Assembly: GCA_044356015.1 (NCBI GenBank)
Contig: JBIKXA010000002.1
Coordinates: 173-64,172 of the forward strand
From: Roseomonas sp.
GTDB taxonomy: Bacteria > Pseudomonadota > Alphaproteobacteria > Acetobacterales > Acetobacteraceae
DNA: 64,000 nt
Direction of reading: 5' to 3'
Shown here: positions 10,958 through 64,000 of the stretch, one piece after another
How positions within the stretch are numbered: the stretch's first letter is position 1
Layout: every line of letters starts with the position of its first letter
Notes under the pieces: model-generated
Database searches by the model: none
Seen by the model: the letters and a program-made list of their open reading frames with translations, nothing else
Told to the model about the DNA's origin: nothing
Made by a program: the position numbers and the translations under genes

Positions 10958-10960
10958 TCT

Positions 10961-12535: not shown

Positions 12536-12539
12536 CGGC

Positions 12540-24704: not shown

Positions 24705-24789
24705 CGGCGCGGGCCACCTTTCATCATTCAACGGACCGACCATGGGGCAGCGTTATGGGCTTGTCATGTCAAAAGCGTAAGAATCCGCG

Positions 24790-37920: not shown

Positions 37921-37954
37921 TGTCTTCCTCCTTGCTGGGTCTTGTTGGATTTCC

Positions 37955-43899: not shown

Positions 43900-44883
43900 T
43901 CAACCCAACTCCATGACCAGCCCTTCGCGACGGATGACGTCGCGCCATTTCGCTACCTCGCGTCCGACGAATGCAGTGAATTCTTCGGGCGTTGTCATAT
44001 GGGGTATGGACCCGGTCTGGGCGAATCGTGCTGCGGTTTCCGGGGTACTCAAAGCGGCGCGCACTTCGGCATTGATCGCTGCAATGGCTTCAGGCGGTGC
44101 GGCGGCATGGGCAAAAAGGCCCACCCAGGTGGAAACATCATAACCGGCCATCTCTGGCGCGGTTTCGCGCAGTGCGGGCACATCGGGAAGCAGCGGGCTC
44201 CGCTCGGCAGAGGTGACGGCCAGCGCCCTAAGCCGACCCGCCTGAACATGCTGACTGGCAGCAATGAGATTTTCAAACATGAATTGCACATTCCCGGCCA
44301 GTAATTCCACCAAAGCTGGCGCCGAACCACGGAACGGCACATGTGTCGCTTCCGCCTGCGCCAATTGCAGAAACCAAACGCCGGCAAGATGCGGCGATTG
44401 GCCAATTCCCGAAGAAGCATAGTTCAATTCGCGTGGGCGCCGCCGCAGCAATGCAATGAATTCCGCCACAGTAGACGCCTGTACCGAAGGATGCACCACC
44501 AGAATATTTGGGCCGCGGATAAGGCCGGATACGGGTGCAAAGGCCGAAGCTTCATATGGCAAGCCGCGGAAAAGCGTATAAGCAATGGCCTGTGGACCGA
44601 TATTTCCAACAAGCAACGTATGCCCGTCTGCCGGCGCGCGAAGGAATTCCACGGTGCCTGTTACGCCCCCACCACCGGAACGATTTTCCACGACCACCGG
44701 CTGGCCCCATGCGGCCTGTAGTTGTGCGGCTACGATACGCCCACCAATATCGGTGATGCCTCCCGGCGGAGCGGGGACGATGATCCGCATTTGCCGTGTT
44801 GGACGCCAGGTGGAGGCAGTAGCAGCAGGGGCAAGGCTGGCCGCGGCAAGGGCCAGCGCAAGACGGCGTTGCAATAGGGGCAT
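43900..44883 (-). CDS. Bug/TctC receptor
   Basis: PPGGITDIGGR, VENRSGGGG, HVPFRGSAPA, PDVPAL. Confidence 0.92.
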   Translation of the reverse strand: MPLLQRRLALALAAASLAPAATASTWRPTRQMRIIVPAPPGGITDIGGRIVAAQLQAAWGQPVVVENRSGGGGVTGTVEFLRAPADGHTLLVGNIGPQAIAYTLFRGLPYEASAFAPVSGLIRGPNILVVHPSVQASTVAEFIALLRRRPRELNYASSGIGQSPHLAGVWFLQLAQAEATHVPFRGSAPALVELLAGNVQFMFENLIAASQHVQAGRLRALAVTSAERSPLLPDVPALRETAPEMAGYDVSTWVGLFAHAAAPPEAIAAINAEVRAALSTPETAARFAQTGSIPHMTTPEEFTAFVGREVAKWRDVIRREGLVMELG

Positions 44884-46652: not shown

Positions 46653-47831
46653 ATGATTCCCCGTACCGTCTTTTCCGCAGCCCATGAACAGTTTCGCGAA
46701 CAGGTGTGCCGTTTCGTTGCGCGCGAAATCCTGCCCCATCACGGCGCCTGGGAAGAAGCGGGGGTGGTGCCGCGCGAAGCCTGGCGTAAGGCGGGCGAAG
46801 CCGGGCTATTGCTCTGCAATGTTCCGGAAGAATTTGGCGGCATGGGGGGCGATTTCCTGCATAGCGCCATTGTCATTGAAGAAATGTCGCGCGCCGGCGC
46901 CACTGGTCCTGCGTTTTCGCTCCACTCCGATATTGTGGCGCCTTATCTTCTTCATTACGGCACAGAAGCGCAAAAACGCCGTTGGTTACCGGCCATGGCA
47001 CGTGGTGAGGCATTGGCTGCCGTTGCTATGACAGAACCGCAAGGCGGTAGTGACCTTCAAGCCATCCGCACCACGGCGATTCGTGATGGTGACAGCTATG
47101 TGATCAGCGGTCAGAAAATCTATATCACCAATGCGCAGGGGGCGGATGTGATTGTCGTCGCCGCCAAGACCGACCCAACAGCGCGCGGACGCGGCGTTAG
47201 CCTGATCCTGGTGGAGACTGATCGGCCTGGCTTTGCACGCGGCAAGCCACTCAAGAAGGTCGGCTGCAAGGCGATGGATACATCAGAGCTTTTCATGGAC
47301 CAGGTACGTGTGCCTGTCTCGAATTTATTGGGGGAGGAAGGGCGCGGCTTTGTACAGCTTATGACAGAGCTTGCCCAGGAACGCTTGGTGCAGGCGGTGC
47401 GCGCAGTGGCGTCGGCAGAGGCTGCGCTTGAGCAGACCATTGCCTATGTCACCACACGCCCGGCTTTTGGCCAGACAGTGGCGGATTTCCAGAATACGCA
47501 GTTCCGCCTTGCAGAAATGCGCTCAGAGATCGCGGTTTTGCGCGTTTATGTGGACCGCTGCCTTGAGGTGCATTTGACCGGAGGCTTGGATGCGGTGGAT
47601 GCTGCCATCGCCAAAATGCAGGCAACCGAAATGCAGGGCCGCGTGATGGATCAATGCGTCCAATTACACGGTGGCGCCGGTTATATGTGGGAATATCCCA
47701 TCGCGCGCGCCTGGGCCGATGCGCGCATGGCGCGCATTGCTGGCGGTTCCATCGAAGTCATGAAACAGATCATCGCGCGTTCGCTATTGCCGAAGCAAGA
47801 AAAACGCCATGGCCGGGCTGCCGCTGAATAA
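46653..47831 (+). CDS. Acyl-CoA dehydrogenase
   Basis: AMTEPQGGSDL, ISGQKIYITN, DTSELF, QLHGGAGY, RIAGGSIEVM. Confidence 0.93.
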   Translation: MIPRTVFSAAHEQFREQVCRFVAREILPHHGAWEEAGVVPREAWRKAGEAGLLLCNVPEEFGGMGGDFLHSAIVIEEMSRAGATGPAFSLHSDIVAPYLLHYGTEAQKRRWLPAMARGEALAAVAMTEPQGGSDLQAIRTTAIRDGDSYVISGQKIYITNAQGADVIVVAAKTDPTARGRGVSLILVETDRPGFARGKPLKKVGCKAMDTSELFMDQVRVPVSNLLGEEGRGFVQLMTELAQERLVQAVRAVASAEAALEQTIAYVTTRPAFGQTVADFQNTQFRLAEMRSEIAVLRVYVDRCLEVHLTGGLDAVDAAIAKMQATEMQGRVMDQCVQLHGGAGYMWEYPIARAWADARMARIAGGSIEVMKQIIARSLLPKQEKRHGRAAAE

Positions 47832-47915
47832 TCTTCACGGTAAACGACCATGGTGATGATTTGCTGGCGCGCCAGGAAGCGCTTACGCCCCCAAGGCGCG
47901 CCAGCAATATGACGG

Positions 47916-48719
47916 CTAGACTGGGCTTGTTTCTGGAAATTGGGGCTTGGTCTTGCCCTTGATGGCTGCGATACCTTTGGGCAATTCTGGGCCGGTAAAA
48001 CCCAGGAACTCCATGGCAACCGCAGCCTCGAAAATTGGACGTGCCTGTTGCAGCCATAGGTTCATGCTGTGCTTGGTCCAGCGCAAGGCGCTTTGCGGCC
48101 CTTCTGCCAGGCGGACCGCAGTTTCAAGCGCTTTTGCCTGTAATTCGTCATCCGGCACCGCCAGCGAGACAAGGCCAATGCGCTCCGCTTCCTTTCCATC
48201 CAGCGGCTCACAGGTGAGCAGATAGTATTTGCTTTTTGCCATGCCACAAAGCAATGGCCAGATGATGGGCGCATGATCACCCGCTGCAACGCCAAGCTTC
48301 GTATGCCCATCTATCAACTTGGCCGAATATCCTGCGATGGAGATATCCGCCATAATCGCAAGCACAATTCCTGCACCAACCGCAGGACCATTGATGGCGG
48401 AAATGATTGGCTTGGAACAGCCAATCATGTTGTACACCATATCGCGCGCTTCTTTCCAAACCTGAATGCGCGTTGGAAAATCTTCCATCATCCGGCTGAC
48501 GAGATCGAGATCGCCGCCAGCCGAAAATCCCCGCCCTGCACCAGTGATGATGACCACTGAGACGGCCGGATCGGCATCAATCTCCCGCCACACTTCGGTA
48601 AGCACGCGATGCATTTCGGGCGTCAGGCTATTCAGCGCATCCGGCCGGTTGAGTGTCAGGCGCAGCACGCGTGGATGCGGCCAATCGGCCAGGATATGGG
48701 GAAGATTATCGTAGCTCAC
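47916..48719 (-). CDS. Crotonase-superfamily enzyme (His/Asp-type subgroup)
   Basis: LNRPDALN, FSAGGDL, INGPAVGAG, DGHTKLGVAAGDHAPIIWP. Confidence 0.9.
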   Translation of the reverse strand: MSYDNLPHILADWPHPRVLRLTLNRPDALNSLTPEMHRVLTEVWREIDADPAVSVVIITGAGRGFSAGGDLDLVSRMMEDFPTRIQVWKEARDMVYNMIGCSKPIISAINGPAVGAGIVLAIMADISIAGYSAKLIDGHTKLGVAAGDHAPIIWPLLCGMAKSKYYLLTCEPLDGKEAERIGLVSLAVPDDELQAKALETAVRLAEGPQSALRWTKHSMNLWLQQARPIFEAAVAMEFLGFTGPELPKGIAAIKGKTKPQFPETSPV

Positions 48720-50350
48720 GCTTGTTTCTCCATTGAATCAGCATGCAGGATATCCTTGACGAGGCGATGGCGCTGAATTTTGCCGGTAGGTGTGAAGGGC
48801 AGTTCCTTCATCACAACAAGACGCTCCGGAAGCTTATAGGTCGCAAAACCATCACCAAGGAATGCGAGAATCTGCTCAAGCCTTGGCGCCGACTGTCCTT
48901 CGCGTGGCACGACGCATAAGCAGGAACGTTCACCAAGGCGGCTATCAGGCAACCCAACAATGGCGCAGTACAGGATGGCGGGATGGCCATAGAGCACTTC
49001 CTCAACCTCGCGCGGAAAATATTTCATGCCGCCGCGGTTGATCATCTCCTTGACGCGGCCGCTGATCCGGAGATTCCCGAGTGTATCAATAAAGCCAAGG
49101 TCACCACTACGGAACCAGCCATCGGTTGTAAACGCATCAGCATTGGCCTGAGGATTGGCGTGATAACCAAGATGAACCGAAGGTCCTTCGGCACAGATTT
49201 CACCTTCCTGTCCCGCCGGCACATCGCGCCCTTCAGGGTCGAGAAGCCGCAATCCCATATGGCTTCCAACACGCCCCACCGAACCAGCTACCGCTTCAGG
49301 ATCATCGCCCGGGCGCGTATAGGTTTGATAGCCATCCTCCAGCATGCCATAGAGTTCAAGGAAGTGCCCAGGGGCAACTACTCGCCAGGCGCGGATTGTC
49401 TCAACCGGGGCTGAAGCGCCACCTGAAACAACAAGCCGGAGGGCTGCAAGATTCGCCTGCCTGATTTCAGGCAAAGCCAGAAGCGCAGTCAGCGAAGCGG
49501 GCGCGGTCGGCACATAGGTGCAGCCTTCGCGTGCAAGTAGTGCCAAGGCGGGCGCAGCCGAAAAGCGTTCCAGCAGCACCGCAGTGGCACCTGCAATGAT
49601 AGATTGCACCAGCGTCAGATAACCCCAGTTCAGCCCAAGTGGCAGCCAGATCATCATGCGATCCGCAGCACCAAGGCCAATATCACCATTAAGGATACGC
49701 GCAGCCGCAAGCGTTGTATTGTGGCTATGCATGACACCCTTGGGATTACCCGTGGTGCCAGACGTAAAGGCCATGCGCATGACGGCATCAGGCGATTGGC
49801 AATAGGGTGTGAAATCCGCAGGCCCCGACCGACCGACGATGATATCATCTAAAGTTGTAACGCCCGGGCGAGACGAAGCGCGAAAACTGCCAACCAGACT
49901 CAAGCCTGGCAAATGGGGTTGCAATTCAAGCGCCATGCCCAGATGATCGAAACCACGGTATTCACCAGTAGTAACAATACCTTTTGCCTCACTGAAGCGC
50001 AGGATATATTCAAGCTCTCGCGCGCGAAAATCTGTTGACACCGTAACCGCGACAGCGCCGATACGTTCAAGGGCGAAAAAGGCAGGCGCGAATTCCAGCC
50101 AATTGGGTAGCTGCAACACCACAACATCATCGGCGCCAATGCCAAGGGCACGATACCGCGCTGCCATGCGATCAATCATGTCTCGCAACGCCTGATAGGT
50201 CACGCTATGCGTACCGTCTGTAATCGCGATCTTGTCCGGCGCCGTGGCGGCGTTGGATGAAAGCAATTCAAACAGCGTCTCATCCTTCCATTGGCCAGAG
50301 GCGCGCCAGCGGGCCGCGCGTTCCGGATCATGCCTGATGTCAAAGCGCAT
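48716..50350 (-). CDS. Acyl/aryl-CoA ligase (cyclohexanecarboxylate-CoA-ligase-like)
   Basis: FTSGTTGNPKG, LYGMLE, FRSGDLG, RGGMKY, GKIQR. Confidence 0.88.
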   Translation of the reverse strand: MRFDIRHDPERAARWRASGQWKDETLFELLSSNAATAPDKIAITDGTHSVTYQALRDMIDRMAARYRALGIGADDVVVLQLPNWLEFAPAFFALERIGAVAVTVSTDFRARELEYILRFSEAKGIVTTGEYRGFDHLGMALELQPHLPGLSLVGSFRASSRPGVTTLDDIIVGRSGPADFTPYCQSPDAVMRMAFTSGTTGNPKGVMHSHNTTLAAARILNGDIGLGAADRMMIWLPLGLNWGYLTLVQSIIAGATAVLLERFSAAPALALLAREGCTYVPTAPASLTALLALPEIRQANLAALRLVVSGGASAPVETIRAWRVVAPGHFLELYGMLEDGYQTYTRPGDDPEAVAGSVGRVGSHMGLRLLDPEGRDVPAGQEGEICAEGPSVHLGYHANPQANADAFTTDGWFRSGDLGFIDTLGNLRISGRVKEMINRGGMKYFPREVEEVLYGHPAILYCAIVGLPDSRLGERSCLCVVPREGQSAPRLEQILAFLGDGFATYKLPERLVVMKELPFTPTGKIQRHRLVKDILHADSMEKQA

Positions 50351-54844: not shown

Positions 54845-55612
54845 TCAACCAGAGATGATTTGACCCCCATCGAGTTGCAGCACCTTGCCAGTGAGGTAAC
54901 TGCATTCCTTGCTAAGCATGAAGCAGGCAACGCCCGCTACTTCCTTAGGGGTTGCGATGCGGCCAAGCGGTATTCCCTTGACGATGCGCGCAGAAGTCTC
55001 AGGTCCCCAGGCATCGAATGCGGTCTGCGCCATATCCGTCGCGGTGAGACCGATGGCGAGCGCATTGGCACGAATGCCATGGCGCGCTTCTTCCTTGGCG
55101 GTCACCCTTATCAGTGCTTCGACACCTGCCTTTGCCGCGGCGCCTTGCGCGTTACGCGCTTGGCACATTTGCGCCGCGATGGACGAAATGGCGAGGATCG
55201 CACCTCCGCCGGCTTTTCTCACATGCGGAATCGCTGCGCTCAAGGCGAAAAAACATCCATTCAGATCGACAGAGATATATCGCTGCCACTCAGCATCTTG
55301 CATCTCCGCAACGCTCGCCCATTGGCCCATCGCGCCTGCCGCGTGGGCCAGAAGCGAAATGCCACCGAGTGCCTCCGCCGCGGCGTTCACGGCGCTACGC
55401 GTTTGCACGGGGTCAGCAAGATCGGCACGGACACCACAAGCGTTTCTGCCCTCCGCACGGATGGCGGTCAGAACGGCTTCAGCTTCCTCCATGCGACTGC
55501 GATAGAGAATCGCTACGTCTGCGCCCCGTTTGGCGCCTTCAATGGCGATGGCACGCCCGACGCCGCGGCTTCCGCCAATCACCAAAAGTCGTTCGCCATT
55601 AAACTGCATCAA
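54845..55612 (-). CDS. SDR oxidoreductase (FabG-like)
   Basis: IGGSRGVG, ISSI; the YxxxK position reads GAAAK (catalytic Tyr apparently absent); PLGRIA. Confidence 0.85.
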   Translation of the reverse strand: MMQFNGERLLVIGGSRGVGRAIAIEGAKRGADVAILYRSRMEEAEAVLTAIRAEGRNACGVRADLADPVQTRSAVNAAAEALGGISLLAHAAGAMGQWASVAEMQDAEWQRYISVDLNGCFFALSAAIPHVRKAGGGAILAISSIAAQMCQARNAQGAAAKAGVEALIRVTAKEEARHGIRANALAIGLTATDMAQTAFDAWGPETSARIVKGIPLGRIATPKEVAGVACFMLSKECSYLTGKVLQLDGGQIISG

Positions 55613-56228
55613 TCACCCCCAAACCGCGCAGAAGAAACTGCACGACCTCCGCCTCGGCCTCCTCACCAGGCATGCTGTCCTTCAGGCGCCATCTGCGTAG
55701 GGCCAACATAATGGGCAGAAAGGTCACTATATCGCCGGCTAATTTGCCTGCGCCGGGCAACTCCATACCGGCAGCACGCGCTTCGTCGATGAGACCAGAG
55801 AAGAATTGAATAAATTGCTCCGTCTGCGCCAGAACCGCGCGGCGCGACTCCGGACCCAGCGCATGCGTTTCCTGATAAATTAGCGCAATATCGCCGCTCC
55901 GCCGACGCATCGCACGTGTGAAGGCGGCAACCGCAGCACGAAACCTTTTGCGGGGCTCGTGCACAGTGGCAATCGCGGCCTCAACCTCACGCGTGTAGCC
56001 TTCAGTCAGATCCTTGTGCACAAGATAAAGAATATCATCCTTTGTACGCACATAGTTATAGAGGCTGCCTTGGGAAAGTCCCGCCTCGATCGCGACATCA
56101 CGGATGGTTGCGCCGTGGAAGCCCTTGGCGCGAAAGACACGCGCCGCTGCACGAACGATATGCGCGCGTCGTTCAGACACGAGGTCGGCATCTTTAACCT
56201 GCGTCGCGATGTGTCGCGTTTGCGACAT
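55599..56228 (-). CDS. TetR/AcrR-family regulator
   Basis: AARVFRAKGFHGATIRDVAIEAGLSQGSLYNY..TKDDIL. Confidence 0.92.
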   Translation of the reverse strand: MSQTRHIATQVKDADLVSERRAHIVRAAARVFRAKGFHGATIRDVAIEAGLSQGSLYNYVRTKDDILYLVHKDLTEGYTREVEAAIATVHEPRKRFRAAVAAFTRAMRRRSGDIALIYQETHALGPESRRAVLAQTEQFIQFFSGLIDEARAAGMELPGAGKLAGDIVTFLPIMLALRRWRLKDSMPGEEAEAEVVQFLLRGLGVIDAV

Positions 56229-56327
56229 GGACTATTTCTCCCTACAGGCAGCCTCCTCTGTTCGAAATGGCTTTGTCAAGGAAAAAATGAGTGAGGGCTC
56301 ATTCAGGCAAGCAAGAAGGTTTAACTA

Positions 56328-56720
56328 GGCCGTGAAGTCATAAACGGGATTGCCAAGGGCGCCTGCTTCTCATTCAAGGCTTCCGGAAGGAGTGTCTTGT
56401 ATGAGCCGTTATGATCTGACCGAATTCGAGTGGCGAGTGATTTCGCCCCTGTTACCGAACAAGCCATGTGGTCTCGCGCTAGTGGCTGACCGGCGCGTAG
56501 TGAGTGGTATTTTCTAAGTATTGCGTTTAGGCTCACGATGACGAGATTTGCCGGAACGCTACGGCCCTTACAACACCCGCTACAGTCGCTTCCGTAGCTG
56601 GACCAAAGCGGGCCTATGGGATCGGATTATAGATGCGATTAAAGATGCTTATGGCGGCGCTGTGCGGATGATCGAATGCACAAGTGTGCGTGTCCACCAT
56701 GCTGCCGCCATTTAAAAAAC
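56328..56720 (+). mobile_element. IS5-family (IS427-like) relic, inactive OrfA
   Basis: CTAG|GCCGTGAAGTCATAAA end; ATG at 56401 gives MSRYDLTEFEWRVISPLLP...GIF*VLRLGSR*RDLPERYG...WTKAGLW...SVRVH with two in-frame stops. Confidence 0.82.
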
Positions 56721-56973
56721 GTATGGCCCGCTCCGTTTGCAAGTGAGATTTTGAGGTGCCTTGATCAGACTGCGTCAACGTATACAGTTTTGTGCGGGAA
56801 GCTACGGCCACGATGGACATTTGCGCGCCCGGAGTCACAATAAAGCGATCGGCAGCGAGTGCCATTTGTTTTGATCGGGCTTTCCAGACGCCGATCGACT
56901 GTCAGGCCATCTCTACGATCCTTTGCGGAAATACTTGTGGCGCATGCAAGCAGGTGCATGCAGCTGATCCGGC

Positions 56974-57045
56974 TATGCCGTGACGACATGGCCGCGCACA
57001 TGTTCACGCGTGCGGCCTTCATTCGCCGCCGATGCCGGGAGGGTC
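56974..57045 (-). pseudogene. Possible N-terminal stub of a terminase large subunit
   Basis: A frame overlapping the end of the upstream gene reads PASAANEGRTREHVR then diverges and stops; expected position of terL. Motif recalled, not searched. Confidence 0.35.
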
Positions 57046-57519
57046 GAAGCGATCTGAAGCCTCCGTCAGAAGCTCATTGATGTGCTGCTGCAGGATGGTT
57101 TGCAGCAGATGGGGCTCGACATTCAGTTCGGCGGCGATGACGCCCGCCACGCGCGCGGGCCAATTCAGCAGCGCGTCGCGCATAGTGCTGGCGATTTCAT
57201 CAATCGTCGCATTGGCGGTCGCGACATCGAGCAGGCGGCCCTTGCTTTCATCCAGTGCGAGGCGCTGGGCTTCGACCTTCAGGGCAAGCTGCGCGACCTT
57301 GAGCCGGGCGAAAGGGGTGCCCTCGGCATTAGTGCTGCCGTTGAGCGAGGACCGCTGCGGGTCTGCGGTGTCCAGCAGCCGAGCGCGTGTCTTGGTGATA
57401 TCCCATTGGCCATCCGGTTCGCGCGTAATGCGCCCGGAGCGTTCGGCCTTGTGCATGGTGGTGTCGCTGACGCCAAGGCGTCGCGCGGCTTCGCGGGTGG
57501 AGGGTGTCAGTTCAGCCAT
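57019..57519 (-). CDS. Putative terminase small subunit (Nu1-like HTH plus coiled coil)
   Basis: STREAARRLGVSDTTMHKAERSGRI...WD, then LKVAQLALKVEAQRL...RDALLNWPARV. Confidence 0.65.
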   Translation of the reverse strand: MAELTPSTREAARRLGVSDTTMHKAERSGRITREPDGQWDITKTRARLLDTADPQRSSLNGSTNAEGTPFARLKVAQLALKVEAQRLALDESKGRLLDVATANATIDEIASTMRDALLNWPARVAGVIAAELNVEPHLLQTILQQHINELLTEASDRFDPPGIGGE

Positions 57520-57561
57520 GGCGGCGACCTCCCGCCGCGCGTTGGTGAGGGTTCAGAAGCG

Positions 57562-57840
57562 TCAGTGAGTGGCGCGCTGCCGCGCTGCGTGGAATGCGGC
57601 GACGGCGGCTTGCCAGTCGGCTTCATGTTCGGCGCCGATGCTCTGGAGGGGTTCGAGCGTCACTTTCCGCCGGCTGTAGTAGTCGCCCTGCATGCGTGCC
57701 AACCAACCGGAAAGCCCCTGCGCGGCAAGGGCGTCGCTGGCGGCGGTGATTTCCGCCTCGCTGGGTTCGGTGCGTCCAAGTGAAATATGCCGACCATCTG
57801 CGCCAAGCAATATCCATCTGGTTTCAGTTTCTGCGTGCAT
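57562..57840 (-). CDS. Small prophage hypothetical protein
   Basis: MHAETETRWILLGADGRHISLGR; GGAGAG RBS; prophage context. Confidence 0.65.
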   Translation of the reverse strand: MHAETETRWILLGADGRHISLGRTEPSEAEITAASDALAAQGLSGWLARMQGDYYSRRKVTLEPLQSIGAEHEADWQAAVAAFHAARQRATH

Positions 57841-57856
57841 CGTCACTCTCCGTCTT

Positions 57857-57896
57857 GCGTGACGGACGCTTCGCGCTGTGTTGCGCGCGAGCCAAG
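57857..57896 (-). promoter_or_regulatory. Conserved upstream element (copy 1 of 2)
   Basis: GCGTGAC.GAC..TTCGCGCTGTG.TG.G.GC(T)GAGCCAAG also occurs at 59235-59275; both lie upstream of small prophage genes. Confidence 0.6.
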
Positions 57897-57967
57897 GCAA
57901 TAATGCGCCAGGGATCGCGATGATCCCTGGCTGATGCAATCATTCATACCGCTGTGGCTGCGAAGCT

Positions 57968-58735
57968 TCATTCCGCTACGCGGTAGACGGTGTAGGAGCC
58001 TTTTGCGCCCTGCTTGTTTGGCCCCACTTGCCGAATGCGCTCGGCAATCTCCACCGTGATGCCCTGGCGCTTTTTCAGCCCGGCGAAAAACCCGCGCACC
58101 GTATGCTGCGCCCAGCCGGTGGCCTCGGCAATTTGCGCCACCGTCGCGCCCTCAGGGCGGCGGAGCATTGCAAGCACCACTTCTTGCTTCGTGCCCTCGC
58201 GTGGCTTGCGTGGCGCGCCCGTGGCGCGCGTGCTGCGGCGTGAGAGCGCGTTGCGCAGCATGTCCATCGCGCGCGTGATCGGGTCTTTATCCGCGTTGGC
58301 CGGTGGCGTTTCTTCCCAAGCAGCCAGCAAGCGCTCGGCGGCTTCGCGCAGGTTCACGCTTCCCATGTTGGGCGCCTCGGGCGCGGCCTGGGCGGGTTGT
58401 TCCGCCACCGCGTCGTCCTGCTGCGGTGTCTTGTTGTCTCCGCCCTGTGGCGCCGTGTCTGGCACCGCGCGCCCCTCATTAGGGTCAATGCCAATGGCGC
58501 GCAGCCCTTCATCCGTCACCTGGATCAGGATCGGCGTGCCATCGCCATCCTTGCGCCACACCATCGCCAATTGATCGCGCGGCGCAGCCACCTCAATCAG
58601 CAGGCGGCTTTTGATCAGGCTGTTGACCACCGCGCGGCAGGCAGCGACTGGCAAATGCTTCGGCGCAATCGCCAGCAATTGCGGGTGCTGCGCGCCATGG
58701 CTCAATACAATCCGCTGCGTGTCAGAAAGCTTCAT
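57968..58735 (-). CDS. DUF3489-domain protein
   Basis: MKLSDTQRIVLS and GTKQEVVLAMLRRPEGATVAQIAEATGWAQHTVRGFFAG. Confidence 0.85.
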   Translation of the reverse strand: MKLSDTQRIVLSHGAQHPQLLAIAPKHLPVAACRAVVNSLIKSRLLIEVAAPRDQLAMVWRKDGDGTPILIQVTDEGLRAIGIDPNEGRAVPDTAPQGGDNKTPQQDDAVAEQPAQAAPEAPNMGSVNLREAAERLLAAWEETPPANADKDPITRAMDMLRNALSRRSTRATGAPRKPREGTKQEVVLAMLRRPEGATVAQIAEATGWAQHTVRGFFAGLKKRQGITVEIAERIRQVGPNKQGAKGSYTVYRVAE

Positions 58736-58841
58736 CGTCTTCGTCTCCGGTTGCGGGCGCCGACCATCGGCCCCTACTGCCGGGAGCCCCGCGGGCGGAC
58801 CCTGCGGGGCAGTGCGGCGCCGCCTCGCGGCGGGCTGCGCT

Positions 58842-59198
58842 TCAATCCTGCGCTTCGGCGGCGATGCCTTCGTTGATCACGAAGCCCGTCAGGTAGGGCA
58901 GGCCGGCGGGGATGCCCGTCTCGCGGCTGGTGCGTTGCGTGATGCGCCAGCCCATCCATTCCGCGGTGGTTTTCGCGATGGCATCCGCCAGGCTCGCGCC
59001 GTGATGCATCTGGCTGTTCACCCCATCCGCGAAGTGGCGCCCGTAGCGGCTGTCGAGGAAGGCGCGGACCGAGGCGGGATCCGTGCTGGTCGCGTTGTGG
59101 ATCGCGGTGAAAGCAATCGGCCAAGCTTGCTGCGCGTGTTCGCGCATGGTGCCCCAGAAACCCCAGTCTTGGTTTTCGGTGGGAAGGATCGTGGTCAT
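58842..59198 (-). CDS. Prophage hypothetical protein
   Basis: TENQDWGFWGTM...VRAFLDSRYGRHFAD...TGIPAGLPYLTGFV; GGAGA RBS. Confidence 0.7.
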   Translation of the reverse strand: MTTILPTENQDWGFWGTMREHAQQAWPIAFTAIHNATSTDPASVRAFLDSRYGRHFADGVNSQMHHGASLADAIAKTTAEWMGWRITQRTSRETGIPAGLPYLTGFVINEGIAAEAQD

Positions 59199-59234
59199 CT
59201 GTTTGTCTCCGTCATCGGCGGGGGAAATCCCTGC

Positions 59235-59275
59235 GCGTGACAGACCATTCGCGCTGTGATGGGGGCTGAGCCAAG
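59235..59275 (-). promoter_or_regulatory. Conserved upstream element (copy 2 of 2)
   Basis: Homologous to 57857-57896. Confidence 0.6.
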
Positions 59276-59971
59276 CGAAATAGAGCGTTATTTCATTGCT
59301 ATGTTCAGCAGGGTTTGATCATGATGTGAGGGCCAAATGGCAGCACCATTCGGCCCTCGCATTCTCTTATCGACTGCGCTTTGCGATTTCGAGGCAAAGC
59401 TGATCTGTTGGCCTCGACCACCCTTCAAGCCATTCAGACAGGGCAGTGTGGCCGGAGATGCCTGGCTATCGCGCCAACCTGGTGCCGATATCGCCAAAAG
59501 GTGATAAGGTTCCTTGCGTTTAGCCCCTCCAATATGCTGGAAATTCTCAGTCATTGAAGCGACTGGGGCCTCGCCGCGAGCCTCCAACGGGCGGTGCTCA
59601 GACGTGGCAATTTGCCGAGTGATGAGGCAGCCATAAAGCAGTAATATTTACCTGCAACAGAGCGACAGAAGAACGATGAAAGCTGCCTCGCGCCTTGTGC
59701 GAGGCCAAAATCCGATTTGCTATCCTGTTCGACGATAAGACATGGTTTAAGGGGCGAAACCGACCGGCACACAAAGTTTCCGATACCTCCCTTGACGCGT
59801 AACGCTTTACCAGTTTAGCTTTTGATTTGAATTTTGCCGTCTGGTCATCAGGAATCGCTCTGCGTAATTCTTTGTTCGTCTGTTTCAGTCCAGCGAGCGA
59901 TTTCACTTGGCTTTTAAAATGAACCAATCAAGAACACCGGATAATCCGGCCACGCATGGGAGAAGAAACAC

Positions 59972-60961
59972 ATGGATCGCTTTACTCGACGCAACCTGTT
60001 TGTCGCCTCTGGCGCTGGGCTTGCCGCCGGCCTAGCCGCGCCCGCGTTCGCGCAAGCGCGTTATCCCAGCCGCCCAGTCCAGATGATTGTGCCCTGGGGC
60101 GCTGGTGGCGGTACGGATGCCACCGCCCGCATCGTTGCCAGCCTGCTTGAACGCGACCTTGGGCAACCCTTCAATGTCGTCAACCGTACCGGTGGCTCTG
60201 GCGTGGTGGGGCATAGCGCCATCGCGACCGGGGCGGCTGATGGCTATACCATCGGCATGATCACGGTTGAGATCACCATGATGCATTGGCAGGGCCTGAC
60301 CGACCTCAAGCCGACCAGCTATACGCCGCTTGCGCTGATGAACTCTGACCCGCCCGGCGTGACTGTTGCGCAGAACGCCCCCTTCGCCGATATCCGTGCC
60401 TTGGCTGAGGCAATCCGTTCGCGTCCGCCCGGGAGTTTCCGCGCCTCTGGCACGGGCCAGGGCGGCATCTGGCATTTGGCGCTGGTTGGCTGGCTGCAGG
60501 CCATGGGCCTGCGCGGTGATCATGTTCGTTGGGTACCTTCGAACGGTGCGGCGCCAGCCATGCAGGAACTCGCCGCTGGCGGGGTGGATATCGTCACCTG
60601 CTCAATCCCCGAAGCGCGCGCGATGATTGATGCGAACCGCGCCCGCGCACTCGCCATCATGGCGCCGGCGCGGAACCCGATGTTCGCGCAAGTGCCCACA
60701 CTGAATGAAACACTCGGCATCAATTATTCGGTTGGTGCCTGGCGCGGCATTGCCGGGCCGCGCAATATGCCGGCCGAAATCGCGAATACGCTCGGTGCCG
60801 CACTGAAGCGCGCCTTTGACAATCGCGAATTCCAGGATTTCATGGCCTCACGCGGCTTTGGCACAGTCTGGGGTGATGCGGCGCAATTCGCTGCCTTCAT
60901 GGCGCAGAGCGATACCTCCATGGGCGAGGCGATGCGGGGCGCCGGCCTGGCGCGTGGCTGA
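59972..60961 (+). CDS. tctC: Tripartite tricarboxylate transporter receptor
   Basis: TRRNLF, PWGAGGGTD, NRTGGSG, VPSNGAAPA, VPTL. Confidence 0.9.
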   Translation: MDRFTRRNLFVASGAGLAAGLAAPAFAQARYPSRPVQMIVPWGAGGGTDATARIVASLLERDLGQPFNVVNRTGGSGVVGHSAIATGAADGYTIGMITVEITMMHWQGLTDLKPTSYTPLALMNSDPPGVTVAQNAPFADIRALAEAIRSRPPGSFRASGTGQGGIWHLALVGWLQAMGLRGDHVRWVPSNGAAPAMQELAAGGVDIVTCSIPEARAMIDANRARALAIMAPARNPMFAQVPTLNETLGINYSVGAWRGIAGPRNMPAEIANTLGAALKRAFDNREFQDFMASRGFGTVWGDAAQFAAFMAQSDTSMGEAMRGAGLARG

Positions 60962-60984
60962 TCGCTGACCTGGGGAGCGATGCG

Positions 60985-61449
60985 TTGCGTCTGAACGATG
61001 CGCTCCTTGGCGCTCTCCTGATTGGCTTTGCCGGCTGGGTCTGGTGGCTGACGGGGTTTTTTCCGCGCTTTCCCGGCCAGGATTACGGGCCAAATCTCTT
61101 TCCACGTATTCTTGCGGCGGGGATCGGTCTTTGTGGCTTGGCGCTGGTGTTACGCGGCCTGCGCGCGCGCGGGCCGCTGATCAGCCTTGAAGATTGGGTG
61201 CGCGATCCCGCCCGCCTATTATCCTTCCTGCTTATGCCGGGCGCGATCTTGTTCTATATTTTCGTCTCGGGCTGGCTTGGCTTCATCCCGACCGCTTTTG
61301 TGCTGCTTTTCGCGTTGTTCCTGTGGTTTCGCGCGCGACCGGTAGTGGCGCTGCCGGTTGCGGCGGGAATGACGCTGCTGATGCATTGGCTATTCGCTGG
61401 GCTGATGCGTGTGCCGCTGCCGCGCGGCCTGATGGAAAGCTTCTTGTGA
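60985..61449 (+). CDS. tctB: Tripartite tricarboxylate transporter small membrane subunit
   Basis: Four hydrophobic segments, GPNLFPRIL, LGFIP, LPRG; lies between tctC and tctA. Confidence 0.87.
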   Translation: MRLNDALLGALLIGFAGWVWWLTGFFPRFPGQDYGPNLFPRILAAGIGLCGLALVLRGLRARGPLISLEDWVRDPARLLSFLLMPGAILFYIFVSGWLGFIPTAFVLLFALFLWFRARPVVALPVAAGMTLLMHWLFAGLMRVPLPRGLMESFL

Positions 61450-61459
61450 GGTCCCTTCC

Positions 61460-62956
61460 ATGGAACCGCTGATCCAGGCCTTCGGTCTTGTTTTTGATCC
61501 CTTTGTCCTGGCGGTGATTGCTGTCTCGGCGGTATTCGGCGTGTTTGTCGGCGCGATGCCAGGGCTCACCGCCACCATGGCGACAGCATTGCTGGTGCCG
61601 GTGACCTTCTTCATGCCACCAGTGCCCGCGCTTGGCGCGATTGTCACTGCGACGACCATGGCGATTTTCGCCGGCGATATTCCAGCGGCGATGCTTCGCA
61701 TGCCGGGCACGCCAGCCTCAGCCGCCTATACCGATGAATCCTACGCCATGACCCAAAAGGGCCAGTTGAACCTGAATATGGGGGTCAATCTGGTCTTCTC
61801 GGTAGCGGGTGGCCTGATTGGCGTTGCAGTGCTGATCGCAGCCGCGCCGGCGCTCGCGGAAGTCGCACTGAATTTTTCGTCCTTCGAGTATTTCTGGCTT
61901 GCCTGCCTGGGCCTGACCTGCGCGGTGTTTCTCACCAATGCCGATCCGGTGAAGGGCTTCCTCAGTCTTTTCATCGGCCTGTTGCTGGCGACCATCGGCA
62001 TTGATCCTTCCGCAGGTTTTCCGCGCTTCACCTTTGGCGAGGTGGAGCTGATGCAGGGTGTGAATTTCATCGCGACGATGATCGGCGTATTTGCAGTGAG
62101 CGAATTGCTGCGCGGCGCTACCTCCCTGCGCGATACGGGTCAGGTTATTGTGCAGCAGGTCGGCAATATGTTCCGTGGCCTGGGTGAGGTTGCGCGGCGC
62201 TACTGGTTCAATTTCCTGCGTGGGAGTGCAATTGGCACGGTGATTGGCGCGCTGCCAGGCGCGGGTGCCGATATCGCGGCCTGGATCAGCTATGCTGTTT
62301 CCAAGCGCTTTTCGAAGGAGCCGGAGAAATTCGGCACCGGCCATGTTGAGGGGATTGTGGACAGTACCTCGGCGAATAATTCGGCGCTTGGCGGTGCCTG
62401 GATACCGGCCCTTGTCTTTGGCATTCCCGGAGATTCCATCACGGCCATTGTCATTGGCGTGCTTTACATGAAGGGTATGAACCCAGGCCCGACGGTATTC
62501 ACCGAAAACCCACAGCTGATCTACGCCGTCTTCCTGATTTTCATCCTGGCCAATCTGATCATGCTGCCGCTTGGCTGGGCCGCGATCAAAAGCGCGCGCC
62601 AGGTGCTGCGCACGCCGCGCAATATCCTGCTGCCGGTCATTCTATTGTTCTGCATCGTGGGCAGCTTCGCTATGACGAACAGCCTTTATGGCGTTGCGAT
62701 CATGCTGGTGATGGGGCTGTTTGGCTGGTTCCTGGAAAGCCACGGCATCCCTGTAGCGCCGCTGATCCTGGGCCTGGTGCTTGGCGAAATGCTGGAACAG
62801 ACTTTTGTGCAGAACATGATCAAGACAGATGGTGATTTCATCGCCTTCTTTGGTCGGCCCATTGGGGGGGCGCTTGGCATTGCGACGGTGCTGATCTGGG
62901 CGATCATGATCCTGCGCGTGCTGCGCCCGACGCGGCGGGGCGCCATGCGTGGCTAA
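61460..62956 (+). CDS. tctA: Tripartite tricarboxylate transporter large membrane subunit
   Basis: GAMPGLTATMA, MPGTPASAA, IGALPGAGADIA, ANNSALGG, GIPGD. Confidence 0.93.
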   Translation: MEPLIQAFGLVFDPFVLAVIAVSAVFGVFVGAMPGLTATMATALLVPVTFFMPPVPALGAIVTATTMAIFAGDIPAAMLRMPGTPASAAYTDESYAMTQKGQLNLNMGVNLVFSVAGGLIGVAVLIAAAPALAEVALNFSSFEYFWLACLGLTCAVFLTNADPVKGFLSLFIGLLLATIGIDPSAGFPRFTFGEVELMQGVNFIATMIGVFAVSELLRGATSLRDTGQVIVQQVGNMFRGLGEVARRYWFNFLRGSAIGTVIGALPGAGADIAAWISYAVSKRFSKEPEKFGTGHVEGIVDSTSANNSALGGAWIPALVFGIPGDSITAIVIGVLYMKGMNPGPTVFTENPQLIYAVFLIFILANLIMLPLGWAAIKSARQVLRTPRNILLPVILLFCIVGSFAMTNSLYGVAIMLVMGLFGWFLESHGIPVAPLILGLVLGEMLEQTFVQNMIKTDGDFIAFFGRPIGGALGIATVLIWAIMILRVLRPTRRGAMRG

Positions 62957-63009
62957 GGTGGAGTGATCGCGCGGAGTTGGATCCGCTCGGCCATCCAGGG
63001 AAGCGTCAT
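62953..63009 (-). pseudogene. 18-codon stub of a probable ParB-like/DNA methyltransferase gene
   Basis: MTLPWMAERIQLRAITPP*; its stop overlaps the tctA stop. The N-terminus resembles prophage ParB-methylases as recalled. Confidence 0.45.
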
Positions 63010-63058
63010 TGGGGATATCCGGGAAGGGTTGGACGGGGATGCGCGGCGCGATGCGCTG

Positions 63059-63200
63059 AGGTTTGCACCTAAGCTGCTGAAATCACGCTGAAAGGGTGCA
63101 AACCATGCGAGGGTTGGGTGCAAACCAGGTGCAAACCTGAGGGCCCTGGGTTTGCACCTAAGTCATTGAATTCACGTCGCTATGGTGCAAACTGCAACCC
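63059..63200. repeat. GGTGCAAACC repeat cluster (6 copies, both orientations)
   Basis: Inverted at 63060 and 63149 (both GGTTTGCACCTAAG); direct at 63095, 63117, 63128 and 63184. Confidence 0.85.
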
Positions 63201-63519
63201 ATATTTTTATTCTGACGCTAGAGAGGTCGGGCGCGTCTGCTCCCCGCATACAATATCGCCAGGAAGGAACCATGAGGTCAAAAGCCACAGTGGCTGATCA
63301 TCTGCAGAATGGCTGACGAGCCACTATGCTCGACGCGCCTTCTCGACGATTCATCATCATAGCAAACTCGATTTGCGCGCCGCAATGGGGAGAATTGTAA
63401 CACAGCATCAGCACGACAATTCCCCCGATTGCGCAGCACTTCAGGCCGCGCGTGAACTTGGCTGAAAGTCGAAGAGGCTCCGCATTGCAAAAGATGAAGG
63501 ATCGCTGCCCATACACGGC

Positions 63520-63831
63520 GGGTCCGGGTTGATCTGGAACTGGGGCCGACTTGGGTCCGGGTTTGCCGCGTAAAAAAACCAGGGATATCGGCCATGGGTC
63601 CGGGTGGTCCGGGTGGGTCCAGGTTTTTGCCCAACACCTCTTATACCCCCGTAATGCCTACCCCATGTCACGTGCATGTCGCGCGTAATGATTTTATGGG
63701 CTGATACGAAAGAGAAAATGAGATACCCGGACCACCCGGACCCACCCGGACCCAGCCAGCATTTTCGCGGCTCTTGCGGTACCGAGAGACCCTGACCCTG
63801 ACCTGGACCCACCCAATCAGACCCGGACCCA
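63520..63831. repeat. Inverted clusters of GGTCCGGG iteron-like repeats
   Basis: Five GGTCCRGG on + (63520-63623) and five reverse complements (63726-63831) around a ~100-bp spacer. Confidence 0.85.
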
Positions 63832-64000
63832 CGACGCGGCCGGCTCACGGCTGACGCCCCGAGGTGGGCTGTCGCCGATAACGGCGTTCGCGTCTCGCCT
63901 GCGGGCCGTGCCCACCCTTGCGCGAGCGACAAAGCTTGAAGCCCATGCTGACGAGGCTACGGACAACGCGGTTCTGGTCAGCCTGGGTCCAGCGCGCCTT

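What the first reader, a model, noticed from the sequence alone, without database searches (positions are those of the whole stretch)
56974..64000. Prophage packaging module with large genes reduced to stubs at cargo junctions
Seen: the small genes (terS-like, DUF3489, two hypotheticals) and cis-repeats are intact. The two large genes expected here survive only as 5' stubs that end where cargo begins: MTLPWMAERIQLRAITPP* against tctA, and ...NEGRTREHVR against the IS5/CoA block. Inference: cargo replaced the methylase and the head genes while cis-acting packaging/replication sites were kept. That is the pattern expected of a helper-dependent, satellite-like element or a lateral-transduction substrate.
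Basis: inference. Interest (0 to 1): 0.7.

Follow-up and report, generated by a model that had tools for sequence, protein, structure and literature searches.

The report
Defective prophage carrying a captured transporter operon
This is the leftover left arm of a common lake-bacterium (Roseomonas-type) prophage: it has lost its methylase, terminase and head genes, it carries a transcribed host-derived tricarboxylate transporter operon, and nothing shows it is a true phage satellite.

Summary
Alignment to intact relatives shows a 15-codon stub of a ParB-methylase gene abutting tctA. At most 7 codons of the large-terminase region abut insertion-sequence debris. TerS, DUF3489 and two small genes are full length, and both repeat sets are intact.

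The element is a deletion derivative of a widespread, often multi-copy, roughly 45-kb lambda-like temperate phage family of Acetobacteraceae. Three blocks are missing:
- the 50-aa and DUF6456 genes;
- both methylases plus DUF6900, replaced by tctCBA;
- terL and everything after it.

The tctCBA swap is old. A relative that is 11% diverged has the same junction and still has the start of terL. The operon is under strong purifying selection and appears in lake metatranscriptomes. The terL loss is recent.

The GGTCCGGGT arrays are a replication origin that co-varies with the adjacent primase. The TGCAAACC repeats are a family-wide site in front of the late operon.

The satellite reading is not excluded: integrase, primase, origin and TerS remain, and intact relatives with 99% identical TerS exist. 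But no conserved reduced family was found, no right-hand attachment site was found, and packaging is cos-type, which argues against lateral transduction. Ordinary prophage decay plus cargo capture is the best explanation.

The parts
56350..56715 (+). IS5-family transposase N-terminal fragment, read as two 55-aa ORFs split by a stop. Insertion-sequence debris.
   Evidence: Pfam DUF4096 hits, E 0.0059 and 2e-7. ORFs.
56715..56984 (.). IS110-family element fragment: the 3' non-coding end plus the last 12 nt of the transposase gene. The transposase itself is absent.
   Evidence: About 80% identity to IS110 elements on sphingomonad plasmids.
56990..57018 (-). All that remains of the terS-terL junction and terL 5' region. 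It holds 0-7 codons of terL, depending on which start is real.
   Evidence: Homology to L002, L168, L098 and L251 ends at 56990. Frame comparison.
57019..57519 (-). Small terminase subunit (TerS), 166 aa, with an N-terminal helix-turn-helix.
   Evidence: PHROG 57, E 1e-24. It lies directly upstream of a GpA-type terL in 125+ relatives. The 166-aa form (stop at codon 167) also occurs in contigs with a complete terL, L168/L169.
57562..57939 (-). Small conserved phage ORF of unknown function (92 aa from the internal start, 125 aa as the longest ORF).
   Evidence: Syntenic in relatives. dN/dS about 0.2.
57968..58735 (-). DUF3489 protein, 255 aa, with a C-terminal winged-helix-like domain.
   Evidence: Pfam PF11994, E 1e-22. 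PHROG 10315, E 2e-33. dN/dS 0.07-0.16.
58842..59198 (-). 118-aa conserved phage protein of unknown function.
   Evidence: PHROG 8020, E 4e-41. 69% nt identity to AcaML1 gp28. dN/dS about 0.1.
59199..59382 (-). Conserved phage intergenic region plus the last nucleotides of the DUF6900 gene. This is the right edge of phage homology at the cargo.
   Evidence: blastn to L002 ends at 59382. Junction alignment. An 83-nt segment is repeated on both sides of DUF6900 in L002.
59383..59971 (+). Cargo leader with lower G+C (51%). 59383-59855 has no homolog found. 59856-59971 is conserved with L098, and RNA contigs start at 59849.
59972..62956 (+). tctC (59972-60961), tctB (60985-61449) and tctA (61460-62956): a complete tripartite tricarboxylate transporter operon. 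This is the cargo.
   Evidence: Pfam TctC E 1e-33, TctB E 1e-17, TctA E 4e-133. dN/dS 0.03-0.09 against L098. About 90% aa homologs sit in a core chromosomal locus of Falsiroseomonas. Covered by freshwater metatranscriptome contigs.
62953..63009 (-). 15-codon stub of the ParB-like N6/N4 DNA methyltransferase gene 1, followed by 3 foreign codons and a stop. The junction lies at 62965/62966.
   Evidence: Alignments. L098 has the same junction. L087 has an independent junction 10 nt further in.
63061..63192 (.). Six GGTGCAAAC(C) sites in both orientations, upstream of the late-operon start. Either an operator for a phage DNA-binding protein or a TerS recognition (cosB-like) site.
   Evidence: Conserved in L002. 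TGCAAACC-type repeats occur at this position across the family whatever the replication module, with a TGCGAACC variant in Elioraea-type members.
63252..63281 (-). Sigma-70-like promoter match (TTGACC-18-GATATT) pointing into the repeats and the methylase start.
   Evidence: This is a consensus match only; the number found equals the chance expectation.
63279..63480 (-). Segment that in relatives follows the DUF6456 gene. Its upstream edge (about 63480) is the junction of a third deletion, which removed the 50-aa and DUF6456 genes.
   Evidence: L040, with a 96% identical primase, carries both genes after the origin.
63521..63829 (.). Iteron-type replication origin candidate. Five GGTCCGGGT sites on + (63521-63624) and seven on - (63725-63829) flank a 100-nt spacer of 46% G+C.
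   Evidence: About 12 copies lie downstream of the primase gene in 24 relatives (65-99% aa identity). The motif is switched to GGTCCCAGT in L015/L038. Absent from relatives that have the other replication protein.
63845..64000 (-). 3' end of the 827-aa DUF7146-Toprim-VapE primase/helicase gene. It continues beyond the window.
   Evidence: Contigs extending the window (L004, L079). Pfam.

Best explanation
The region is the surviving left arm, about 12.4 kb, of a temperate phage of a family that is widespread and often multi-copy in Acetobacteraceae.

The canonical gene order of that family is:
1. serine recombinase
2. DUF2924
3. orf228
4. primase plus iteron origin (or a DUF3987-type replication protein instead)
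5. 50-aa gene
6. DUF6456
7. two ParB-methylases
8. DUF6900
9. orf118
10. DUF3489
11. orf92
12. TerS
13. GpA-type TerL
14. portal
15. protease
16. capsid

Three events shaped the window's copy.

(1) In an ancestral phage or prophage, the methylase block was replaced by a host tctCBA operon. The operon was copied from a core chromosomal tctCBA-maoC locus. The capture ends at the start codon of the next host gene.

(2) The 50-aa and DUF6456 genes were lost.

(3) Recently, everything from the start of terL onward was removed, and the end was joined to truncated insertion-sequence debris next to ordinary chromosomal genes. This probably happened through breakage or recombination in the terL 5' region, which is a disruption hotspot in this family.

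Shown:
- homology, junction positions and synteny;
- purifying selection on tctCBA;
- co-variation of the iterons with the primase;
- RNA contigs over tctCBA only.

Inferred:
- the cargo now works as a host transporter, a form of lysogenic conversion;
- the phage genes are silent passengers kept 'fresh' by recombination with resident or incoming relatives;
- the element cannot form particles on its own.
For: - Synteny and junction mapping against intact relatives.
- No terL, portal, capsid or other phage genes in the rest of the window or in the 9 kb beyond it.
- Insertion-sequence fragments sit at the right junction. The junction lies inside the IS110 copy, not at its terminus.
- The same methylase/tctA junction occurs in L098, which is 89% identical in nucleotides and continues into terL.
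- L251 is 100% identical over 57290-63863, then shows 8% divergence and runs into terL.
- The window's terS 5' half is 100% identical to contigs L168/L169 that carry a complete terL, which indicates recent recombination.
- Independent, differently truncated remnants sit beside intact copies in sister MAGs.
- tctCBA has dN/dS 0.03-0.09, and its closest non-phage homologs lie in a conserved chromosomal locus.
- Metatranscriptome contigs cover tctCBA but none of the phage-derived DNA.
Against: - The parts that survive (recombinase, primase, origin, repeat cluster, TerS) are the set a helper-dependent element would need.
- The retained genes carry no private substitutions at conserved sites.
- The contig holding the tct cargo is 1.4-1.7 times deeper than the chromosomal flank in four metagenomes. 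A second, possibly intact or mobile, carrier of the same module is therefore likely.
- L251 could be a chimeric assembly.
- Absence of RNA contigs is weak evidence of silence.
- The rest of the genome was not available, so the missing right arm could lie elsewhere.
Confidence: 0.7

Rival explanations
1. A nascent helper-dependent (satellite-like) element. The 12.4-kb unit excises with its serine recombinase and replicates from its own primase/origin. Its TerS and recognition site direct a co-resident relative's TerL and capsids to package it, probably as multimers, which spreads tctCBA.
For: - The recombinase, DUF2924, primase (827 aa, full length) and iteron origin are all intact just outside and inside the window.
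- TerS is intact.
- Contigs with a complete terL and 99% identical TerS occur in lake metagenome-derived viral contigs from IMG/VR.
- Sister MAGs hold remnants and intact copies together.
- Size is in the satellite range.
- No decay in the retained genes.
Against: - Gene stubs and insertion-sequence debris mark recent accidental deletions.
- No independent family shares this architecture. The only copies are one near-clonal population in one chromosomal context.
- The right-hand attachment site should have gone with the right arm.
- No capsid-size or helper-interference genes were recognised.
- Gene intactness is explained by recency and recombination.
- No RNA from the phage genes.
Confidence: 0.1
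2. A lateral-transduction platform. In-situ packaging starts at the retained site near 63.1 kb and runs into the neighbouring chromosome.
For: A repeat cluster that could be a terminase recognition site is retained next to chromosomal DNA. Related intact phages are abundant in the same communities.
Against: - The relatives' TerL is GpA_ATPase + GpA_nuclease, with a lambda-type portal. That is cos-type packaging, which needs a second cos site at capsid-length distance (PMC9006064).
- The role of the repeats as a packaging site is unproven.
Confidence: 0.03
3. The prophage is split, not truncated. An inversion or translocation through insertion sequences or between co-resident related prophages moved terL-to-tail genes elsewhere in the same genome.
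For: - Insertion-sequence fragments at the break.
- A recombination signature inside terS.
- Multi-copy related prophages in sister genomes give ample homology for rearrangement.
Against: The IS copies at the junction are themselves truncated. No second breakpoint was seen. The genome outside the extended contigs was not available to check.
Confidence: 0.12
4. A domesticated module. The host keeps TerS/DUF3489/orf118 because they interfere with superinfecting relatives, for example as a packaging decoy.
For: Breaks in independent remnants cluster just after terS, so remnants regularly keep this block. dN/dS is low.
Against: - No match to known defence families.
- No RNA detected.
- The clustering is better explained by a break hotspot in terL.
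- The search was made with TerS, so only remnants that keep it could be seen.
Confidence: 0.05

Closest known systems
Cryptic (defective) lambdoid prophages of E. coli K-12 such as Rac, DLP12 and Qin (from my own knowledge)
   Same: An integrated phage arm keeps some early, replication or packaging genes. Morphogenesis genes are lost by deletion or insertion-sequence activity. The remnant carries genes useful to the host and recombines with incoming relatives.
   Different: The host clade differs (freshwater Acetobacteraceae). The integrase is a serine recombinase with DUF2924. The cargo is a complete host transporter operon placed exactly in the methylase slot, and that swap predates the decay.
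Acidithiobacillus phage AcaML1 (JX507079), the only sequenced phage record with DNA similarity
   Same: It shares the orf118 homolog (gp28; 69% nt identity over 340 nt), two DNA methylases, Nu1-like TerS, GpA TerL, portal and ClpP-type protease.
   Different: The similarity is very distant and the gene order and orientation differ. AcaML1 is a complete 59-kb phage.
SaPI/PICI phage satellites, including cos-type SaPIbov5
   Same: Integrase, primase/replication module with iteron origin, own TerS or helper cos site, 10-15 kb, no tail or lysis genes.
   Different: PICIs form conserved families with dedicated regulators and capsid-redirection or interference genes, and they have two attachment sites. 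Here the architecture is a one-off deletion product with gene stubs and IS debris, and no interference genes were recognised.
Satellite phage P4 (alpha primase-helicase with ori/crr iterons; cos shared with P2)
   Same: A primase-helicase sits next to arrays of short iterons that it presumably binds. Packaging would depend on a helper terminase of the cos type.
   Different: No Sid/Psu/delta/epsilon analogues. The primase here is DUF7146-Toprim-VapE. Helper dependence is untested.
Phage morons / auxiliary metabolic genes (tctA was reported once as a putative AMG domain hit on SUP05 viral contigs, PMC4164917)
   Same: A host-type transport function is carried inside a phage genome slot that is dispensable for growth.
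   Different: Here it is a whole three-gene operon with about 90% aa identity to the host clade's core copy. It replaces the methylases rather than sitting between genes. Linkage to a demonstrably complete phage is only partly shown (L098, L251).

Membership tests
Defective prophage of the Acetobacteraceae lambda-like (GpA terminase) temperate phage family | Collinear homology with intact members of the family | tested here: met
   90% nt identity over 2.4 kb and 87% over 0.3 kb to L002. Same gene order in 160 loci.
Defective prophage of the Acetobacteraceae lambda-like (GpA terminase) temperate phage family | Essential morphogenesis genes missing or broken | tested here: met
   terL is reduced to 0-7 codons. 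No terL, portal or capsid homolog in the window or in the 9 kb beyond it.
Defective prophage of the Acetobacteraceae lambda-like (GpA terminase) temperate phage family | Integrase at one end | tested here: met
   A 446-aa Resolvase+Recombinase protein with a DUF2924 partner lies about 5 kb beyond the window end, on contigs identical to the window. L035 has the same left end.
Defective prophage of the Acetobacteraceae lambda-like (GpA terminase) temperate phage family | Attachment sites / empty site | not tested
No empty-site contig was seen.
Phage satellite (PICI / P4-like) | Own integrase and replication module with origin | tested here: met
Phage satellite (PICI / P4-like) | Packaging determinant matching a helper (TerS or helper cos/pac site) | tested here: inconclusive
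   TerS is present and 99% identical to that of contigs with a complete terL. The packaging site itself was not identified. The TGCAAACC repeats are only a candidate.
Phage satellite (PICI / P4-like) | A conserved reduced architecture shared by independent members in different sites or hosts | tested here: not met
   Only near-identical copies in one context. L098 and L251 run into terL. Other remnants are truncated differently.
Phage satellite (PICI / P4-like) | Helper-interference or capsid-redirection genes and a helper-responsive repressor | tested here: not met
   No PHROG, Pfam or PADLOC match of that kind among the retained ORFs. Small ORFs of unknown function remain.
Phage satellite (PICI / P4-like) | Helper-dependent excision, replication and encapsidation | not testable with these tools
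   Needs induction experiments.
Lateral-transduction donor locus | Headful (pac-type) terminase initiating in situ | tested here: not met
   The relatives' TerL has GpA_ATPase + GpA_nuclease, and the portal is Phage_portal_2. The cos type is inferred by homology. Cohesive ends were not shown.
Iteron-type replication origin paired with a primase-helicase initiator | Clustered short repeats in helical phase flanking an A+T-richer spacer, next to the initiator gene | tested here: met
   12 sites with 9-10 nt spacing within sub-arrays. The spacer is 46% G+C against 59-65% around it. The cluster starts 16 nt after the primase stop codon.
Iteron-type replication origin paired with a primase-helicase initiator | Repeats co-inherited and co-varying with the initiator | tested here: met
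   About 12 copies in 24 relatives. The motif is switched in L015/L038. Absent from loci with the DUF3987-type protein.
Iteron-type replication origin paired with a primase-helicase initiator | Origin activity | not testable with these tools
   Needs a replication assay.
Tripartite tricarboxylate transporter (TTT) operon | TctC receptor, TctB small and TctA large membrane subunits, all intact | tested here: met
   Pfam hits over full profile lengths. dN/dS 0.03-0.09. RNA contigs. The substrate is unknown.

The most novel reading that the evidence does not exclude
The remnant is a satellite caught at birth. It would be a 12-kb deletion derivative that still excises and replicates from its own primase/origin. 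Using its TerS and the conserved repeat cluster, it would be packaged by co-resident intact relatives, moving a functional tctCBA operon between lake Roseomonas strains. The extra depth of the tct-bearing contig relative to the chromosomal flank would then reflect extrachromosomal or second-site copies.
Probability: 0.08. Interest if true: 0.7.

Novelty: new member of a known kind. Interest (0 to 1): 0.33.

Why it matters
As it stands this is an ordinary defective prophage, and it mainly corrects a more exciting reading.

It does document a few useful things:
- A phage family that is very common, and present in several copies per genome, in freshwater Acetobacteraceae.
- A dispensable 'methylase slot' in that family that repeatedly picks up host transport and metabolism genes. 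Examples are tctCBA here and in L098, a TctC-GAF-amidase-cyclase set in L087, and a lone TctC in L002/L101/L190.
- A clear primase-iteron pair that can be tested as a replication origin.
- A striking clustering of gene-killing breaks in the first 100 codons of terL, next to the site where an intein with a homing endonuclease is inserted.

If that last link is causal, it would give a concrete mechanism for how prophages in multiply lysogenic hosts are turned into remnants.

Tried and rejected
- Rfam scan of 55500-64000 at E <= 0.1: no hit, so no known RNA and no bridge-RNA model match in the IS110 fragment.
- tRNA scan of the whole window: none, so no tRNA-type attachment site.
- PADLOC on the retained ORFs: only noise.
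- PDB sequence search with TerS and DUF3489: nothing usable.
- NCBIfam: only weak helix-turn-helix hits.
- Plasmid collection: only IS110 and a TctC hit, so no sign that the window is a plasmid.
- Phage collection: only a weak AcaML1 hit.
- Selection test inside the population (window against MAG contig L008): no power. 150 of the 165 differences sit in a recombination tract at 47.0-50.0 kb, and the phage genes are almost identical.
- I first read the 166-aa TerS (CGA to TGA at codon 167) as a decay lesion. I rejected this because contigs L168/L169, which carry a complete terL, have the same stop.
- Literature: DUF3489 appears in one survey paper only. 'TctC + prophage' hits were mostly DNA strings.
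- Assembly chimera as an explanation for the window's junctions: rejected.

Full report
**What is in the window**

On the minus strand, 57019-59198 holds four closely packed genes:
- a TerS-like protein (PHROG 57, E 1e-24);
- a 92/125-aa ORF;
- a DUF3489 protein (Pfam E 1e-22; PHROG 10315);
- a 118-aa protein (PHROG 8020, E 4e-41).

On the plus strand, 59972-62956 is a complete tctC-tctB-tctA operon.

Left of 56990 lie a 270-nt IS110-family 3'-end fragment and an IS5-family N-terminal fragment. A TetR/SDR/branched-chain ABC/acyl-CoA block follows.

The rest of the window encodes ordinary metabolism and transport and no phage genes. Examples are ornithine decarboxylase, peptide ABC systems, a sulfatase, two orphan TctC receptors, a CoA transferase and acyl-CoA ligases.

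**Where it comes from**

The sequence occurs at 81-87% k-mer share in many lake metagenomes.
- Contigs from more than 20 JGI lake samples and one NCBI MAG (GCA_020249245.1) carry the same arrangement at 98.6-100% identity.
- Exact contigs span every junction in four independent runs.
- The closest named genomes are freshwater Roseomonas MAGs.

**Intact relatives and the deletion map**

TerS homologs are 76-99% identical across Acetobacteraceae. In 160 fetched loci they sit in one conserved order:

replication protein (DUF3987-type, or the DUF7146-Toprim-VapE primase) - 50-aa - DUF6456 - ParB-methylase 1 - ParB-methylase 2 - DUF6900 - orf118 - DUF3489 - orf92 - TerS - GpA-type TerL - small protein - lambda-type portal - protease - capsid.

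Near-complete viral contigs are 44-48 kb. Several MAGs hold three to five copies.

Against L002, the window matches 56990-59382 (90.4%) and 62966-63278 (87%).

*Methylase stub.* It is the first 15 codons of methylase 1. It joins, 9 nt after the tctA stop, to 'AAGGTGGAGTG'. In the native host locus that sequence is the ribosome-binding site and GTG start of the next gene.

*Right cargo junction.* It is at 59382, in the last nucleotides of DUF6900.

*terL junction.* It is at 56990. That is 22 nt past L002's annotated terL start and 12 nt before the conserved start MLRPPPQL. It lies inside, not at the end of, the IS110 copy.

*Third deletion.* Contigs that extend the window (L004, L079) show that the window ends inside an 827-aa primase gene. 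Beyond it lie orf228, a 72-aa ORF, DUF2924 and a 446-aa serine recombinase. L035 has the same left end followed by the canonical order. L040, whose primase is 96% identical, has the 50-aa and DUF6456 genes right after the origin region. The window lacks them, which gives a third junction near 63480.

**Age and origin of the cargo**

L098, from another Roseomonas MAG, is 89% identical in nucleotides across stub, tctA, tctB and tctC. It has the same methylase/tctA junction to the base and runs on past TerS into terL. So the swap predates about 11% divergence and was made in an element that still had terL.
- Window against L098 gives dN/dS 0.03 (tctA, tctC) and 0.09 (tctB).
- The nearest non-phage TctA proteins (about 90% aa) lie in a conserved Falsiroseomonas locus, DctPQM-HPF-Band7/NfeD-tctCBA-MaoC-EF-G. 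That marks the cargo as a captured core operon.
- Freshwater metatranscriptome contigs at 97% identity or more cover 59849-62544 and nothing else in 54.4-64.0 kb. This is weak, contig-based evidence that the cargo is transcribed and the phage genes are not.

**State of the retained genes**

Against ten relatives, dN/dS is 0.07-0.13 for TerS, 0.07-0.16 for DUF3489, about 0.1 for orf118 and about 0.2 for orf92. The window's copies have 0, 0, 0 and 2 private changes at positions invariant in 14-27 close relatives, which is no more than the copies in the other fetched loci.

The stop at TerS codon 167 (relatives have 171 aa) looked like a lesion. It is shared by contigs L168/L169, which carry a complete terL.

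Intactness does not require selection on the remnant.
- L251 is 100% identical to the window over 57290-63863. It then differs at 25 sites in 300 nt and continues into terL.
- The window's terS 5' half is 100% identical to L168/L169, while its 3' half is 96% identical.

That is the pattern of very recent recombination among relatives. For L251 alone it could instead be a chimeric assembly. Either way the terL loss is recent.

**The repeats**

*GGTCCGGGT arrays.* They start 16 nt after the primase stop and form two facing arrays around a 46% G+C spacer.
- About 12 copies lie in the same place in 24 relatives whose primase C-termini are 65-99% identical.
- In L015/L038 the repeat is GGTCCCAGT instead.
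- Loci with the other replication protein lack it.

This is good comparative evidence for an iteron origin bound by the primase.

*GGTGCAAAC cluster (63061-63192).* It sits 50-180 nt upstream of the methylase start, downstream of a promoter-like match. Repeats of the TGCAAACC type, or TGCGAACC in Elioraea-type members, occupy this position across the family whatever the replication module. The cluster therefore belongs to the late/packaging side. It could be an operator or a TerS recognition site. I could not decide between the two.

**Why the satellite and lateral-transduction readings are weak**

What remains is what a satellite would need, and possible helpers exist. Against the satellite reading:
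- The architecture is a single near-clonal deletion product.
- L098 and L251 continue into terL.
- Other genomes hold other truncations.
- The right attachment site should be gone.
- No interference genes were recognised.

Against lateral transduction, the family's terminase and portal are of the lambda cos type. Cos packaging needs two cos sites at capsid spacing (PMC9006064).

**A by-product: a break hotspot in terL**

Among the 160 loci:
- 125 have a complete terL;
- 11 carry an in-frame insert of about 1084 nt at residue 75-76, with a LAGLIDADG domain (an intein);
- the disruptions fall at residues 0 (window), 0, 23, 37, 47, 58, 73, 98, 100 and 551 of 641.

Nine of ten breaks lie in the first 100 residues. 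For uniform breaks along terL, P is about 5e-7 by my calculation.

MAGs with truncated copies also hold intein-bearing copies (JADCFN: L093 with L097; JADCGF: L092 with L096). Cleavage of intein-free alleles by the homing endonuclease, followed by faulty repair, would explain this. That is inference. The breaks at residues 98-100 do not fit simple resection from residue 75.

**Verdict**

The 'satellite / lateral transduction' part is unsupported but not excluded. The most likely reading is an ordinary, recently truncated prophage arm carrying a transcribed, captured transporter operon.

Noticed in passing
Loci L084, L096, L097, L116, L121, L124, L147, L196 (truncated terL); L092, L093, L105, L107, L115, L188, L194, L199, L204, L213, L237 (intein); window 56990: Disruptions of terL in independent remnants cluster in its first 100 codons (residues 0, 0, 23, 37, 47, 58, 73, 98, 100; one at 551). 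Eleven otherwise complete terL genes carry an in-frame 361-aa LAGLIDADG intein at residue 75-76. Homing-endonuclease breaks may drive prophage truncation in multiply lysogenic hosts.
   Followed up: partly
L002/L101/L190/L214 (TctC between DUF6456 and methylase 1); L087:1949-6028; L098:179-3780: The region around the methylases repeatedly carries host transport or metabolism genes. There is a lone TctC receptor in several contigs whose fetched segments show the full canonical gene order. L087 has a TctC-GAF-amidase-cyclase set replacing the methylases, with an independent junction only 10 nt from the window's. L098 and the window have tctCBA.
   Followed up: partly
L015 and L038, 700 nt downstream of the primase gene: In two relatives whose primase C-terminus is 73% identical to the window's, the dozen GGTCCGGGT iterons are replaced by about eight GGTCCCAGT-type repeats. 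This looks like a switch of origin specificity.
   Followed up: partly
L016-L033 (IMG/VR contigs of 14-18 kb): Small predicted viral elements carry tyrosine integrase, the same primase type with iterons, TerS, TerL, portal and capsid within about 15 kb. They could be small phages or capsid-forming satellite-like elements. Tails were not looked for.
   Followed up: no
window 59331-62994 against 55500-57033: In four lake metagenomes the exact contig holding both cargo junctions is 1.4-1.7 times deeper than the exact contig holding the terL/IS/chromosome junction. This suggests a second carrier of the same tct-bearing module. L251 may be it.
   Followed up: partly
window 56715-56984: An orphan non-coding 3' end of an IS110-family element, about 80% identical to copies on Novosphingobium, Sphingobium and Sphingopyxis plasmids. 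Its transposase is missing. No Rfam model matched it.
   Followed up: partly
window 59383-59855: A 473-nt stretch of 51% G+C between the phage edge and the conserved tctC leader. It has no homolog in any fetched locus, and L098 has a different 400 nt here.
   Followed up: no
window 47000-50000: 150 of the 165 differences between the window and MAG contig L008 fall in this 3-kb stretch (enoyl-CoA hydratase and acyl-CoA synthetase genes). It looks like a homologous-recombination tract in an otherwise near-identical region.
   Followed up: no
L097:3434-7263: Directly after a terL truncated at residue 98 lie a TIR-domain protein and an nSTAND1 NTPase. This is a defence-like pair sitting in a prophage remnant.
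   Followed up: no
L002:11721-12665 and the same place in L094, L168, L169, L174, L195, L201, L207, L218, L229: An Mrr-type restriction endonuclease gene on the opposite strand is inserted between terL and the portal gene in a subset of relatives.
   Followed up: no
window 36937-37986, 43900-44883; 9353-14159; 20988-24743: Two further orphan TctC receptors, three tandem family-5 solute-binding proteins next to a sulfatase, and a 1251-aa BTAD + AAA_16 regulator. This is ordinary chromosomal context.
   Followed up: no
window 63381-63433: An 18-nt inverted repeat (89% complementary, 17-nt loop) lies in the segment that in relatives follows DUF6456. Its role is unknown.
   Followed up: no
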